NCBI RefSeq assembly: GCF_009914755.1
Contig: NC_060947.1
DNA length: 64,000 nt
Reading direction: 5' to 3' (one strand)
Source: the human T2T-CHM13v2.0 reference genome, Homo sapiens
The notes under the pieces: model-generated
Told to the model about the DNA's origin: nothing
What the model saw: only the letters and a program-made list of their open reading frames with translations
Database searches by the model: none
In this document: positions 22,026 to 29,413 of the stretch, piece after piece
Layout: each line of letters begins with the position of its first letter
Numbering within the stretch: position 1 is the first letter of the stretch
Made by a program: the position numbers and the translations under genes

Positions 22026-24267
22026 AATCTCAGTTTTGGACACTGTGATACTCTCATATGTTTCTTTGTTTCCATTATTAGCCTGTTTCTTTTTATAAGC
22101 AATTACTTAATTTATTTCCATGACAAATAATCATAAGTAAAATGTATCAGTCCAAAAGTTTTCTGGTAAAAAATCAAAGTGAAATTACAACACAAACTTA
22201 TTTTAACAAGGTCCCAAGTTTCCCAATTAACTTGTCTCCAATTCTTATGTATTCTGTTCACCAATTGCATTATATCTCTTCTGAAAACAATTAATATGAC
22301 AACTTGTAAATTTCTGGCAAAGAAACTGAGTATCTAGAACTGAGCAGAAATATCACAGTGATTACAACAAATTATTTTTGTCTATTTGCTTGTAAATCTG
22401 TTTTTTTTTTAATTTTTTATTATACCTTAAGTTCCGCGATACATGCGCAGAACATGCAGGTTTGTTACAGAGGTATACGTGTGCCATGGTGGTTTGCTGA
22501 ACCCATCAACCTGTCATCTACGTTAGGTATTTCTCCTAATGCTGTCCCTCCCCTTGCCCCCCACCTGTTGACAGGCCCTGATGTGTGATGTTTCCTTCCC
22601 TGTGCCCATATGTTGTCATTGTTCAACTCCCACTTATGAGTGAGAAAATGTGGTGTTTGGTTTTCTATTCCTGTGTTAGTTTGTTGAGAATGATAGTTTC
22701 CAGCTTCATCCATGTCTCTGCAAAGGACATGAACTCATTCTTTATCATGGGTGAATAGTATTCCATGGTGTATATGTACCACATTTTCTTTATCCGGTCT
22801 ATCATTGATGAGCATTTGGGTTGGTTCCAAGTCTGTGCTATTGTGAATAGTGTTACAACAAAAATACATGTGCATGTGTCTTTGTAGTAGAATGATTTAC
22901 AATCTTTGGTTATATACCCAGTAATGGGATTGCTGGGTCAAATGGTATTTCTAGTTCTAGATCCTTGAGGAATCACCACACTGTCTTCCACAATGGTTGA
23001 ACTAATTTGCACTCCCACCAACAGTGTAAAAGCATTCCTATTTCTCCACACCCTCTCCAGCATCTGTTGTTTCCTGACTTTTTAATGATCACCATTCTAT
23101 CTCGCGTGAGATGGTATCTCATTGTGGCTTTGATTTGCATTTCTCTAATGACCAGTGATGATGAGCTTCTTTTCATATATTTGTTGGACACTTATATGTC
23201 TTCTTTTAAAAAGTGTTTGTTCATATCCTTTGCCCAGTTTCTGATGGGGTGTTTTTTTTTTGTTGTTGTTGTTGTAAATTTAAGTTCCTTGTAGATTCTG
23301 GATATTAGCCCTTTGTCAGATGGATAGATTGTAAAAATTTTCTCCCATTCTGTAGGTTGCCTGTTCACTCTGATGCTAGTTTCTTTTGCTGTGCAGAAGC
23401 TCTTTAGTTTAATTAGATCCCATTTGTCAATTTTGACTTTTGTTGCAATTGCTTTTGGTATTTTAGTCATGAAGTCTTTGCCCATGCCTATGTCCTGAAT
23501 GGTATTGCCTAGGTTTTCTTCTAGGGTTTTTATGGTTTTAGGTCTTACAGTTAAATCTTCAATCCATCTTGAGTTGATTTTTGTATAAGGTGTAAGGAAG
23601 GGATCCACTTTCAGTTTTCTGCATATGGCTAGCCAGTTTTCCCAACACCATTTAATAAATAGGGAATCCTCTCCCCATTGCTTGTTTTTGTCAGGTTTGT
23701 CAAAGATCAGGTGGTTGTAGATGTGTGGTGTTATTTCTGAGGACTCAGTTCTGTTTCATTTGGTCTATATATCTGTTTTGGTACAAGTACCAGTACCATG
23801 CTGTTTTTGTTAATGTAGCCTGGTAGTATAGTTTGAAGTCAGTTAGTGTTATGCCTCCAGCTTTGTTCTTTTTGCTTAGAATTGTCTTGTCTATATGGGA
23901 TCTTTTTTGGTTCCATGTGAAATTTAAAGTCGTTTTTTTCAAATTTTGTGCAGAAAGTCAGTGTTAGCTTGATGGGGATAGCACTGAATCTATAAATTAC
24001 TTTGGGCAGTATGGCCATTTTCACAATATTGATTTTTCCTATCCATGAGCATGGAATGTTTTTCCATTTGTTTGTGTCCTCTCTTATTTCCTTGAGCAGT
24101 GGTTTGCAGTTCTCCTTGAAGAGTTCCATCACATTCCTTGTAATTTGTATTCCTAGGTATTTTATTCTCTTTGTAGCGATTTTGAATGGGAGTTCATTCA
24201 TGATTTCACTCTCTGTTTGTCTATTACTGGTGTATAGGGATGCTTGTGATTTTTGCACATTGATTTT

Positions 24268-24904
24268 TTTTTTATTATACTTTAAGTTTTAGGGTACATG
24301 TGCACATTGTGCAGGTTAGTTACATATGTATACATGTGCCATGCTGGTGCACTGCACCCACTAACTCGTCATCTAGCATTAGGTATATCTCCCAGTGCTA
24401 TCCCTTCCCCCTCAACCCACCCCACAACAGTCCCCAGTGTGATATTCCCCTTCCTGTGTCCATGTGTTCTCATTGTTCAGTTCCCACCTATGAGTGACAA
24501 TATGCGGTGTTTGGTTTTTTGTTCTTGTGATAGTTTACTGAGAATGATGTTTTCCAATTTCATCCATGTCCATACAAAGGACATGAACTCATCATTTTTT
24601 ATGGCTGCATAGTATTCCATGGTGTATATGTGCCACATTTTCTTAATCCAGTCTATCATCGTTGGACATTTGGGTTGGTTCCAAGTCTTTGCTATTGTGA
24701 ATAATGCCGCAATAAACATACGTGTGCATGTGTCTTTATAGCAGCATGATTTATAGTCCTTTGGGTATATACCCAGTAATGGGATGGCTGGGTCAAATGG
24801 TATTTCCAGTTCTAGATCCCTGAGGAATCGCCACACTGACTTCCACAATGGTTGAACTAGTTTACAGTCCCACCAACAGTATAAAAGTGTTCCTATTTCT
24901 CCAC
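24268..24904 (-). mobile_element. L1PA2-like 3' fragment nested in the L1PA7
   Basis: 3'UTR 'cccactaactcgtcatctagcattaggtatatctccc' (GAG-type, L1PA2-like). T-tract at left. The host resumes at gagactttgc (24905). No TSD. Confidence 0.88.
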
Positions 24905-26072
24905 GAGACTTTGCTGAAGTTGCTAGTCAGCTTAAGGATTTTTTGGGCTGAGACAATGGTGTTTTCTAAATATACAATCATGTCATCTGCAAACAGGGAT
25001 AATTTGAATTCCTCTCTTCCTATTTGCATACCGTTTATTTCTTTCTCTTGCCTGATTGCCCTAGCCAGAACTTCCAATACTATGTTGAATAGGAGTGGTG
25101 AGAGAGGTCATCCTTTCCTTGTGCTATTTTTCAAAGGGAATGCTTCCAGTTTTTGCCCATTCAGTATGATATTGGCGGTGGGTTTGTCATAAATAGCTCT
25201 TATTATTTTGAGATATGTTCCATCAATACCTAGTTTATTGATAGTTTTTAGCGGGAAGGGATTTGAATTTTATCAAAGGCCTTTTCTGCATCAATTGAGA
25301 TAATCATGTGGTTTTTGTCATTGTTTCTGTTTATGTGATGGATTACATTTATTGATTTGCATATGTTGAATCAGCCTTGCATCCCAGGGATGAAGCTGAC
25401 TTGATTGTGGTGGATAAGCTTTTTGATCTGCTGCTGGATTCAGTTTGCCAGTATTTTACTGAGGATTTTTGCATCGATGTTCATCAGGGATATTGGCCTG
25501 AAATTTTGTTTTGTTTTGTTGTGTCTCTGCCAGGTTTTGGTAACAATATGATGCTGACCTCATAAAATGAGTTAAGGAGGAGTCCCTCTTTTTCAATTGT
25601 TTGGAATACTTTCAAGGAATAGTACCAGCTCCTCTTTGTACCTCTGGTAGAATTGGGCTCTGAATTAGTCTGGTCCTGGGCTTTTTTGGTTGGTAGGCTA
25701 TTAATTACTGCCTGAATTTCAGAACTTGTTATTGGTCTATTCAGGGTTTTGACTTCTTCCTGGTTTAGTCTTGGGAGGGTGTATGTTTCCAGGAATTTAT
25801 CCATTTCTTCTAGATTTTCTAGTTTATTTGCACAGAGGTGTTTATAGTATTTTCTGATGGTAGTTTATATTTCTGTGGAATCAGTGGTGATCTCCCCTTT
25901 ATACTTTTTTATTGTGTCTATTTGATTCTTCTCTCTTTTCTTCTTTATTAGTCTGGCTAGTGGTCTATTTTGTTAATATTTTCACAAAACCAGCTCCTGG
26001 ATTAATTTATTTTTTGAAGGGTTTTTCATATCTCTACCTCATTCAGTTCTGCTTTGATCTTAGTTATTTCTT

Positions 26073-27293
26073 TTTTTCAAATCACACTATTTATTGCCAT
26101 ACAGTTTGTTTCTCTTTTCTTTTGGTTCACAATGCTTAAATGGGGAGGATAATGAAAACAAATCTCATAGGGAATATACCCTATAGACGAAATACATTAA
26201 CTACATAGTGAGTTCCGAAATTATTAAAGTCTAGTTGCTCAGTTAGGATGGAAGCAGGCCTCTGTGGAAAGTATAGTCTAATTAAAGTTTGAGGTGTGCC
26301 TTATACCAGGGGTTCTCAGGGGAGATGATCTGACCTGACACAGCAGAGGTTCCTAGATGCTAAAGGGTTGTTCTGGTGTTGGTGGGCAAAGCTTTGGGGG
26401 TTAGCTCAAAGGCAAATAAGGTATGGCCCTGATAGCATGAGCTCTCCCTCTTTGAGAGGCCGCTAACAGTGCAGCCCTGCTAGGGCCTAAGTTCTCAAAC
26501 TGTCTGTGAAACTTTTAGGATTATATGTATTTTGGATTCCAGTAGTTGAGGTCAATAGCTCAGATATGGGGCCTGATAAGGTATGGCCTAACATTCTTGA
26601 GGGGAGAGGGCTTATCACAGCAAAACATGTCACTCATTTAGCAAATCATATAAGTGCTTGGAATTATTTTAAGGCTACAAAACAATAACACAACATGAAT
26701 TTCTCCAAGTGCTCTGGAATATATCATTGTTAGATGCACCATAATTTGATCATAATTTAAGCTGATCACATAATGTTTTTAAATTTAGTTGGTCAAATGA
26801 AAGTCATTCAATAAACATAACTGGTGAAGTGGAGGTCATATTCGTTAGTTTTAGTAATTTCCTATTACAAAATATATTATCAGTTGCAGATATCAGTTGC
26901 TCCAGTAATCCTGCATAACAAACCACCTGAAACCCAAAGGCTTAAAACAATGATCATTTAATATTGCTCATGAAAGTAGAGTTTAGGTAGGTCATTCTTA
27001 TGGTCTTGGCTAAACTCATCTGTCTGCAATCAACTGCAAATTGAGGAGGCTGCTTTGTTGATCTTGTCTGAGTTCTTTGACATGTTTATGCATGCTTGAG
27101 GGTTGAATGGATTTTGTCTAACCTAAAATGGTCCTTGACTGAAACAGCTGGGATGACTGAAAATAAGGAAGCCTCAACTCTCCTCCATATCTCTTACAGC
27201 CTTTTATATATTACCCAGTTTTAGTTTAATGAGGAAAATGTCTTTGGAATATTTCTGAGGATACTATTTAGAATTTGTTTTTATGTTTTTTTA
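26073..27293 (-). mobile_element. Retrotransposed non-L1 segment (candidate orphan 3' transduction or unspliced retrocopy)
   Basis: Perfect 13-bp TSD ttagttatttctt (26060-26072 and 27294-27306). Short T-tract, with a minus-strand AATAAA (tttatt 26090-26095) 12 nt from it. Contains an MLT1-like piece (~26880-27200) and a possible MIR-like piece (~26130-26225). Confidence 0.85.
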
Positions 27294-28389
27294 TTAGTTA
27301 TTTCTTGTCTTCTGCTAGCTTTTGAATTTGTTTGCTCTTGCTTCTCTAGTTCTTTTGTGATGTTAGGGTGTCGATTTTAGATCTTTCCTGCTTTCTCCTG
27401 TAGGAATTTAGTGCTATGAATTTTCCTCTAAACACTACTTTAGCTATGTCCCAAAGATTCTGGTACATTGTGTCTTTGTTCTCATTGGTTTCAAAGAACT
27501 TATTTATTTCTGCCTTTATTTCATTATTTACCCGGTAGTCATTCAGGAGCAGGTTGTTCAGTTTCCAACTAGTTGTGTGGTGTTGAGTGAGTTTTTTAAT
27601 CCTGAGTTCTAATTTGATTGCACTGTGGTCTCAGAGACTGTTTGTTATGATTTCCATTCTTTTGCATTTGCGAGGAGTGTTTTACTTCTAATTATATGGT
27701 CAATTTTAGAATAAGTGCTATGTGGTGCTGAGAAGAATGTATATTCTGTTGATTTGGGGTGGAGAGTACTGTAGATGTCTATTAGGTCGGCTTGGTCCAG
27801 AGCTGAGTTCAATTCCTGAATATCCTTGTTAATTTTGTTTCATTGATCTGTCTAATATTGACAGTGGGGTGTTAAATTCTCCCACTATTATTGTGTGGGA
27901 GTCTAAGTCTCTTTGTAGGTCTTGAAGAACTTGCTTTATGAATTTGGCTGCTCCTGTACTGGGTGCATATATATTTAGGATGGTTAGCTCTTCTTGTTGC
28001 ATTGATCCCTTTACCATTATGGAATGCCTTTCTTTGTCTTTTTTGATCTTTGTTGGTTGAAAGTCTGTTTTATCAGAGACTAGAATTGCAACCCCTGCTT
28101 TTTTTTTTTTTTTTTTTTTTTGCTTTCCATTTGCTTGGTAAATCTTCCTCCATCCCTTTATTTTGAGCCTATGTGTGTCTTTGCACATGAGATGGGTCTC
28201 CTGAGTACAGCACACCGATTGGTCTTGACTCTTTATCCAATTTGCCAGTCTTTGACTTTTAATTGGGGCATTTAGCCTGTTTCCATTTAAGGTTAATATT
28301 GTTATGTGTGAATTTGATCCTGTCATTATGATGCTAGCTGATTATTTCACCCAATAGTTGATGCAGTTTCTTCATAGTACTGATGGTCT

Positions 28390-29413
28390 TTACATTTTGG
28401 TTTGTTTTGCAGTGGCTGGTAGTGATTTTTCCTTTCCATATTTAGTGGTTCCTTCAGGAGTTCTTCTAAGGCAGGCCTGGTGGTGACAAAATCCCTCAGC
28501 AATTGCTTGTCTGTAAAGGAGTTTATTTCTCCTTCCCTTATGAAGCTTAGTTTGGCTTCATATGAAATTCGTGGTTGAAAATACTTTTCTTTAAGAATAT
28601 TAAATATTGTCCCCCACTCTCTTCTGGCTTGTAGCATTTCCACAGAGAGATCCACTGTTAGTCTGATGGCCTTCCCTTTGTGGGTAACCATACCTTTCTC
28701 TCTGGCTGCTCTTAACATTTTTTCCTTCATTTCGACCTTGGTGAATCTGACAATTATGTGTCTTGGAGTTGCTCTTCTCGAGGAGTATCTTTGTGGTGTT
28801 CTCTGTATTTCCTGAATTTGAATATTGGCCTGTCTTGTTAGGTTGGGGAAGTTCTCCAGGATAATATCCTGAAGTGTGTTTTCCAACTTGGTTGCATTCT
28901 CCCTGTCACTTTCAAGTATACCAATCAAACGTAGGTTTGGTCTTTTCACATAGTCCCTTATTTGTTGGAGGCTTTGTTCATTCCATTTCATTATTTTTCC
29001 TCTAATCTTGTCTTCAAACTTTATTTCATTAAGTTGATCTTCAATCTCTGGTACCTTTTTTCCACTTGATCAGTTTGGCTATTGATACTTGTGTATGCTT
29101 CACGAAGTTCTCGTGCTGTGTTTTTCAGCTCCACTGGGTCATTTATGTTCTTCTCTAAACTGTTTATTCTAGTTAGCAATTCCTCTAACCTTTTTTCAAG
29201 GTTCTTAGCTTTCTTGCATTGGGTTAGAACATGCTCCTTTACCTCAGAGGAGTTTGTTATTACCCACCTTCTGAAGCGTACTTCTGTCAATTTGTCAAAC
29301 TAATTTTTCCTCCAGTTTTGTTCCCTTGCTGGCAAGGAGTTGTGATCCTTTGGAGGACAAGAGGCATTTTGGTTTTTTGAATTTTCAGCCTTTTTGTGCT
29401 GGCTTTTCCTCTT
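28390..29413 (-). pseudogene. Disrupted L1 ORF1
   Basis: Fragments 'DYVKRPNLRLIG', 'RYSSRRATPRHIIVRF' and 'EELLKEPLNMERKN'. The start codon appears mutated to AAG (29411-29413). Frameshifts. Confidence 0.9.

What the first reader, a model, noticed from the sequence alone, without database searches (positions are those of the whole stretch)
26060..27306. 1.2-kb foreign genomic segment retrotransposed into an L1: candidate orphan 3' transduction
Seen: the L1PA7 ORF2 is split at 'ttagttatttctt', which is duplicated perfectly (13 bp) around 1,221 bp of non-L1 sequence. On the minus strand the insert ends in AATAAA, 12 nt, then a short A-tail, which are hallmarks of L1 target-primed reverse transcription. 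It carries MLT1-like and possibly MIR-like fossils. Established: those families stopped moving long before L1PA7 was active, so they cannot have jumped in themselves. The insert's 5' end (27274-27292) reads 'aaaaaaacataaaaacaaa' on the minus strand. Inference: this may be the poly(A) of a source L1 whose read-through transcript was truncated at the L1/flank border, making the insert a barcode for a source element elsewhere. An alternative is a retrocopy of an unspliced RNA or 3'UTR.
Basis: partly seen in the sequence, partly recalled or inferred. Interest (0 to 1): 0.8.

Follow-up and report, generated by a model that had tools for sequence, protein, structure and literature searches.

The report
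Non-coding RNA retrocopy inside an L1
A 1.2-kb piece of chromosome 3 was copied through RNA and pasted by L1 machinery into an older L1 on chromosome X; this is an ordinary retrocopy, and nothing points to a source L1 beside the parent sequence.

Summary
A perfect 13-bp duplication (26060-26072 and 27294-27306) brackets 1,221 bp of non-L1 DNA inside a minus-strand L1 ORF2. All 5 other L1 copies examined carry that 13-mer once.

The genome holds exactly one collinear paralogue, C3:107584306-107585510, at 92% identity. It is the parent. It has no duplication and no A-tail, and its old LTR-like repeat runs on about 50 nt past the point where the chrX copy stops. The chrX copy ends 12 nt after the AATAAA of that LTR, at the LTR family's own conserved poly(A) signal.

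The orphan 3' transduction reading is not supported:
- The A-rich 5' end is native chr3 sequence followed by non-L1 DNA.
- No usable L1 lies within 30 kb upstream of the parent.
- There are no sibling copies.

Best reading: an L1-mediated, probably 5'-truncated retrocopy of an unspliced non-coding transcript. Divergence from the parent is K2P 0.082, which I read as roughly 20-40 Myr. This is an ordinary event of a known kind. I could not test primate empty sites or the transcript annotation at the parent.

The parts
26060..26072 (.). Target-site duplication, left copy (ttagttatttctt). It adjoins the insert's 3' A-tail.
   Evidence: Present once in 5 of 5 other L1 copies.
26073..26077 (-). Remnant poly(A) tail: 5 A on the minus strand, of which 2 to 5 are untemplated.
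   Evidence: The parent reads AAA and then unrelated LTR sequence at this point.
26090..26095 (-). AATAAA poly(A) signal, 12 nt upstream of the A-tail. It is the LTR family's own signal.
   Evidence: One search shows AATAAA in the same column in 6 of 8 genomic copies of the repeat, about 66 nt from the repeat's 3' end.
26078..26685 (-). 3' half of the insert: about 610 bp of an ancient LTR-like dispersed repeat (MaLR/MLT1-like, name unverified), cut off at its poly(A) site.
   Evidence: 57 hits at 66-82% identity covering query 3-614. Searches show the repeat continuing past the cut in the parent and in other copies.
26686..27293 (-). 5' half of the insert: sequence found elsewhere only at the chr3 parent, with a roughly 100-bp scrap of another old repeat at about 26887-27011. 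It includes the A-rich 5' end (27274-27292), which is chr3-templated apart from 4 extra A.
   Evidence: the only full-length match is C3:107584913-107585510 at 91%, plus 12 short hits of 50-102 bp to query 198-322. Junction.
27294..27306 (.). Target-site duplication, right copy. It adjoins the insert's 5' end. The first-strand nick is inferred on the + strand after ...tttctt, before gtc.
22410..26059 (-). Host L1, 3' part: rest of ORF2, 3' UTR and A-tail.
   Evidence: One search prints the L1 3' end with its T-run. One search shows 87-92% identity to other L1 copies.
27307..29359 (-). Host L1, 5' part, with the start of ORF2 and its endonuclease domain at 27832-28341.
   Evidence: (Pfam PF03372, E 7.8e-07). 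The upper bound is taken from the masked stretches in the hub's table.

Best explanation
The insert is an L1-mediated (target-primed reverse transcription) retrocopy of an unspliced, non-coding RNA. That RNA was transcribed from the minus strand of an intergenic-looking locus at C3:107584306-107585510. It ran from unique sequence into an ancient solo LTR and was cleaved and polyadenylated at that LTR's own AATAAA signal.

L1 ORF2p then nicked a T-rich site inside an older L1 ORF2 on chrX (...tttctt/gtc on the + strand) and primed on the poly(A). It copied about 1.2 kb and stopped or was joined there, most likely a 5' truncation. This left a 13-bp target-site duplication.

Shown: the duplication, the single parent, the direction parent to copy, the end at the LTR poly(A) site, and the lack of an L1 beside the parent. 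Inferred: the identity and promoter of the RNA, 5' truncation rather than a true transcription start, and an age of roughly 20-40 Myr.
For: - 13 of 13 bp are duplicated at the exact break of an L1, and 5 of 5 other copies are continuous there.
- One collinear paralogue at 92% identity covers 1214 of 1221 bp. The other 57 hits are old-repeat copies that reach no further than query position 614. The unique half matches chr3 only.
- The parent has no duplication and no A-tail. Its LTR-like repeat continues about 50 nt beyond the chrX end point, as it does in the other copies.
- AATAAA sits in the same alignment column in 6 of 8 genomic copies, 12 nt before the chrX A-run.
- Coding and RNA-family checks: no ATG-started ORF of 40 aa or more on the minus strand, and no Rfam family.
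- Divergence is 94 substitutions in 1211 sites, K2P 0.082. The host L1 differs from other copies by about 8-14% pairwise, which fits a younger insert nested in an older L1.
Against: - The A-tail is only 5 nt outside the duplication, and 3 of those could be templated. The poly(A) evidence therefore rests mainly on the position of AATAAA.
- The nick site TTCTT/GT is only a partial match to the L1 endonuclease preference TTTT/AA, which I cite from recall.
- The copied stretch spans no intron, so an RNA intermediate is not shown by splicing.
- I could check no transcript annotation or expression data for the parent.
- No primate orthologue was available to show the empty site.
- Four extra A at the 5' junction (A7 against A3 in the parent) are unexplained. 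They could be homopolymer drift or untemplated bases.
Confidence: 0.8

Rival explanations
1. Orphan L1 3' transduction. A full-length L1 upstream of the chr3 stretch read through its own poly(A) signal, the RNA ended at the LTR signal, and reverse transcription stopped within the flank, so that no L1 sequence was carried along.
For: The TPRT hallmarks and the single parent locus fit this as well as a retrocopy. The 5' end is A-rich and has 4 more A than the parent. A source L1 that was polymorphic and later lost would leave no trace in this one genome.
Against: - The A-rich stretch is templated by chr3 and is followed there by non-L1 sequence.
- In the 30 kb upstream of the parent, BLASTN and TBLASTN with the window's L1 (3' end to ORF2 start) find only an ancient ORF2 scrap at L012:6880-7292, about 16.4 kb upstream of the junction. 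It scores 68-70% nucleotide and 40-48% amino-acid identity.
- The first 5 kb upstream are unique but for one old 220-bp repeat.
- No sibling insertions share the stretch.
- The definition requires sequence downstream of an active L1 locus (PMC7058536, passages read).
Confidence: 0.1
2. Full-length retrocopy. The RNA's true 5' end (transcription start) lies at the chr3 junction near C3:107585510, so the insert is a complete copy of a short 1.2-kb transcript and is not 5'-truncated.
For: Homology ends cleanly at the junction, and extra bases at the 5' junction can accompany capped full-length copies (recalled). No sibling or longer copy exists to show a longer RNA.
Against: No CpG-island-like 500-bp window occurs in the 40 kb around the parent. 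The extra bases are A, not the G expected from a cap (recalled). 5' truncation is the common outcome of L1-mediated insertion (recalled).
Confidence: 0.08
3. The copy was made at the DNA level without L1, either as a small duplicative transposition or as a fragment captured during double-strand-break repair.
For: The A-tail is very short and no intron loss can be shown.
Against: The copy ends 12 nt after a conserved AATAAA, inside a repeat that continues in the parent. It carries a 13-bp duplication at a T-rich site. DNA capture predicts neither feature.
Confidence: 0.02

Closest known systems
L1-mediated processed pseudogenes / retrocopies of cellular RNAs
   Same: It has a target-site duplication, a 3' end at a poly(A) site with an A-tail, a single parent locus on another chromosome, and a likely 5' truncation. 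Trans-mobilisation by L1 machinery is described in PMC7058536 (passages read).
   Different: The template was a non-coding, apparently unspliced RNA from a locus where I saw no gene. There is no intron loss and no ORF, so gene-centred retrocopy catalogues would not list it.
Orphan L1 3' transduction
   Same: Unique non-L1 DNA was mobilised by TPRT without any L1 sequence, and the origin is a single traceable locus.
   Different: The defining source L1 upstream of the parent stretch is absent within 30 kb. The A-rich 5' end is native parent sequence.
LTR-supplied polyadenylation of read-through transcripts (solo LTRs of ERV-L/MaLR type)
   Same: The RNA ended at an AATAAA that is conserved in the LTR-like repeat family, about 66 nt before the repeat's 3' end. 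This geometry is typical of LTRs (recalled).
   Different: The family name (MLT1-like) could not be checked against a repeat library. The use of the site is inferred from one fossil cDNA copy, not from RNA data.

Membership tests
L1-mediated (TPRT) retrocopy | Target-site duplication flanking the insert at a site that is single-copy before insertion | tested here: met
   13 of 13 bp duplicated. 5 of 5 other L1 copies carry the 13-mer once and are continuous across it.
L1-mediated (TPRT) retrocopy | 3' end at a polyadenylation site, followed by an A-tail | tested here: met
   AATAAA, then 12 nt, then an A-run. The parent and 7 other repeat copies continue past this point. The tail is short, with only 2 to 5 untemplated A.
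L1-mediated (TPRT) retrocopy | A parent locus elsewhere that lacks the insertion hallmarks | tested here: met
   C3:107584306-107585510, 92% identity, no duplication or tail, repeat intact.
L1-mediated (TPRT) retrocopy | Nick site resembling the L1 endonuclease preference (TTTT/AA; recalled) | tested here: inconclusive
   The inferred site is ...TTTCTT/GTC on the + strand. It is T-rich with a purine after the nick, but not canonical.
L1-mediated (TPRT) retrocopy | Loss of introns relative to the parent | not testable with these tools
   The copy is collinear with the parent over its whole length. No intron lies within it, and no annotation of the parent was available.
L1-mediated (TPRT) retrocopy | Empty site in outgroup species | not testable with these tools
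   No primate genomes are held. Only the window's own assembly could be searched.
Orphan L1 3' transduction | The parent stretch lies directly downstream of a full-length L1 in the same orientation | tested here: not met
   There is no L1 beyond an ancient roughly 370-bp ORF2 scrap 16 kb away within the 30 kb upstream. The first 5 kb are unique but for a 220-bp old repeat.
Orphan L1 3' transduction | The A-rich 5' border derives from the source element's poly(A) | tested here: not met
   The stretch is present in the parent as native sequence and is followed by non-L1 DNA.
Orphan L1 3' transduction | Sibling insertions sharing the transduced tag (frequent, not obligatory) | tested here: not met
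   Only the one parent and the one copy are in the assembly.
MaLR/MLT1-type LTR (3' half of the insert) | Many dispersed, old copies of LTR length | tested here: met
   57 hits at 66-82% identity. The homologous span in the parent is about 660 bp, L002:1455-2118.
MaLR/MLT1-type LTR (3' half of the insert) | Poly(A) signal some tens of nt before the 3' end of the repeat | tested here: met
   AATAAA in 6 of 8 genomic copies, about 66 nt before homology to the other copies ends.
MaLR/MLT1-type LTR (3' half of the insert) | Match to the curated family consensus (Dfam/Repbase) | not testable with these tools
No repeat library is on hand.

The most novel reading that the evidence does not exclude
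The insert is a fossil cDNA of a germline-expressed intergenic transcript from the chr3 region about 1 Mb proximal of CBLB. It would record, some 20-40 Myr ago, both the RNA's existence and the use of an ancient solo LTR as its terminator. Alternatively, it is a true orphan transduction whose source L1 was never fixed and has vanished, leaving this copy as its only trace.
Probability: 0.12. Interest if true: 0.25.

Novelty: new member of a known kind. Interest (0 to 1): 0.12.

Why it matters
It matters little beyond annotation. The case shows that a stretch left unmasked inside an L1 can be a retrocopy of non-coding DNA, and that the parent can be found with one genome search. It also shows that an A-rich 5' border is not enough to call a transduction. 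The insert gives a relative date (younger than the host L1) and documents past use of an LTR poly(A) site. It lies antisense in a large IL1RAPL2 intron, and I see no sign of any effect on that gene.

Tried and rejected
- Direction chrX to chr3 is rejected. chr3 has no duplication or tail, and the old repeat is complete there.
- The whole insert as one known repeat is rejected. Only the 3' half is repetitive. 8 of 8 other loci carrying the repeat share nothing with the parent upstream of it, and the 5' half matches chr3 only, apart from a 50-102-bp scrap.
- L1 search beside the parent: BLASTN and TBLASTN with 27 open pieces of the window's L1 over C3:107575001-107615000 gave only an ancient scrap.
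- CpG-island scan of those 40 kb: none.
- Rfam on the parent and the copy: 0 matches at E up to 0.1.
- ORF scan: one 40-aa ORF, on the + strand only.
- The sigma-70 promoter and terminator scan is a bacterial model and says nothing here.
- Pfam on three further small ORF2 pieces gave no match (3 of 4 pieces).
- Placing the parent: a Pfam Cbl_N search puts CBLB exons at C3:108.49-108.57 Mb, so the parent is about 1 Mb proximal. That it lies in a gene-poor stretch before ALCAM is recalled, not tested.
- One paper search failed on a term that was too short and was repeated.
- One search gave listings only. None of those papers was read.

Full report
**What is there**

The + strand of the window carries the 13-mer ttagttatttctt at 26060-26072 and again at 27294-27306, with mismatching bases just outside both copies. 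Between them lie 1,221 bp (26073-27293).

Read on the minus strand, this stretch ends with AATAAA (26090-26095), then 12 nt, then an A-run of five (26073-26077) that abuts the left copy of the 13-mer.

**The host is an L1 and the duplication is real**

The flanks are a minus-strand L1:
- Its 3' end with the A-tail (a T-run on the + strand) is near 22,410-22,430.
- The minus-strand frame at 27832-28341 matches the endonuclease family PF03372 at E 7.8e-07.
- Three other short ORF2 pieces I sent gave no Pfam match.

I took five other L1 copies from the same genome, the best hits to 25773-26072, and compared them with the window. In 5 of 5, the window's left half ends and its right half begins on the same 13 bases of the other copy, for example L016 1788-1800. 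The ancestral L1 therefore had the 13-mer once, and the insertion duplicated it. I could not verify the subfamily name L1PA7.

**Where the insert came from**

A search of the whole assembly with the 1,221 bp gave 59 matches: the window itself, one collinear match at C3:107584306-107585510 (92% identity, query 3-1216), and 57 matches at 66-82% identity that reach no further than query position 614.

A second search with the other half (26690-27293) found only the chr3 locus at full length, plus 12 short hits of 50-102 bp to a scrap at about 26887-27011. The insert therefore consists of:
- about 610 bp of an ancient dispersed repeat, on the 3' side in transcript sense
- about 610 bp of sequence that exists elsewhere only on chr3

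**Which copy is the parent**

The chr3 copy has no duplication and no A-tail. Its copy of the old repeat runs on about 45-50 nt past the point where the chrX copy stops, and so does the repeat at the other loci that align across that end.

In the alignment of the repeat's 3' ends, AATAAA stands in the same column in 6 of 8 genomic copies. Two have mutated versions. Homology among copies continues about 66 nt further before the unrelated flanks begin. The chrX copy leaves the alignment 12 nt after that AATAAA and goes into A's and the duplication.

This is what a cDNA of an RNA polyadenylated at the LTR's own signal should look like. It also fixes the direction as chr3 to chrX. The layout, a signal some 60 nt before the repeat's end, is that of an LTR.

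**Test of the transduction idea**

In the parent, the same string (...aaacataaaaacaaatt on the minus strand) is present as native sequence and is preceded by ordinary non-L1 DNA. chrX merely has A7 where chr3 has A3.

I fetched 10 kb downstream and 30 kb upstream of the parent and searched them in two ways:
- BLASTN with the window's own L1, from its 3' end to the start of ORF2
- TBLASTN with 27 open pieces of its translation

The only upstream match is a scrap at L012:6880-7292, about 16.4 kb upstream of the junction, at 68-70% nucleotide and 40-48% amino-acid identity. It is internal to ORF2 and far too old and too small to have been a source. A 53-bp hit lies on the downstream side.

A genome search with the first 5 kb upstream shows them to be unique apart from one old roughly 220-bp repeat, and it finds no second copy anywhere. 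There are thus no sibling insertions and no longer retrocopy.

By the definition used in the cancer-genome literature, an orphan transduction is unique sequence from downstream of an active L1 locus, mobilised without the L1 (PMC7058536, passages read). The defining neighbour is missing here. A source L1 that was never fixed cannot be excluded from one genome, and I give this rival 0.1.

**What the RNA was**

- The minus strand of the insert has no ATG-started ORF of 40 aa or more. The one ORF listed is on the + strand.
- Rfam finds nothing in the parent or the copy.
- No CpG-island-like window occurs in the 40 kb examined.
- The copy is collinear with the genome, so the RNA was unspliced over this stretch.
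- A Pfam Cbl_N search places CBLB exons at C3:108.49-108.57 Mb, so the parent is about 1 Mb proximal of CBLB. From memory this is the gene-poor stretch before ALCAM, but I could not see any annotation for chr3.

The most likely template is the 3' end of an intergenic or read-through non-coding transcript, copied only in part (5' truncation). At the 5' junction, one base could be shared between the end of the duplication and the parent, and one further base, the T at 27293, can also be read as parent-templated. Four A are unaccounted for.

**Age**

The copy and the parent differ by 94 substitutions in 1,211 aligned sites with 5 gap events. K2P is 0.082, or 0.074 without CpG sites. At neutral rates of 1.0-2.2 x 10^-9 per site per year (recalled), this is about 19-41 Myr.

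The host L1 differs from other copies by about 8-14% pairwise. That fits a host somewhat older than its guest.

**Weak points**

- The A-tail is short: 5 nt, of which 3 could be templated.
- The inferred nick site (...TTTCTT/GTC) is only T-rich, not canonical.
- An RNA intermediate is argued from the poly(A)-site end point, not from intron loss.
- Primate empty sites and transcript data could not be checked.

**Verdict**

The mechanism (L1-mediated insertion of foreign sequence) is confirmed in kind. This is an ordinary, unlisted member of a well-known class.

Noticed in passing
L002:1296-1413 (C3:107584101-107584218): An Alu-like element lies about 85 bp beyond the parent's poly(A) site, on the minus strand. 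It also matches stretches in L006-L008. It is absent from the chrX copy, as expected for sequence past the cleavage site.
   Followed up: partly
window 26416-26428 and 26576-26588: A perfect 13-nt direct repeat (ATAAGGTATGGCC), 160 bp apart, lies inside the LTR-like part of the insert (family D3). The parent has the first copy intact and the second with two changes. It may be an internal duplication of the old repeat.
   Followed up: no
window 27832-28341 (minus strand): The host L1's ORF2 endonuclease frame carries a run of eight lysines, an A-run in the DNA. From memory, younger L1 copies have a much shorter lysine run there. It is probably homopolymer expansion in a dead copy.
   Followed up: no
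L012:6880-7292 (C3:107601880-107602292): An ancient L1 ORF2 fragment lies 16 kb upstream of the parent, on the minus strand, at 68-70% nucleotide identity to the window's L1. It is the only L1-like sequence in the 40 kb examined, apart from a 53-bp hit in L014.
   Followed up: partly
L011:3701-3922 (C3:107588701-107588922): An abundant old dispersed repeat of about 220 bp (1,127 first-look candidates, 67-85% identity among those scored) is the only repeat in the first 5 kb upstream of the parent. The family was not named.
   Followed up: no
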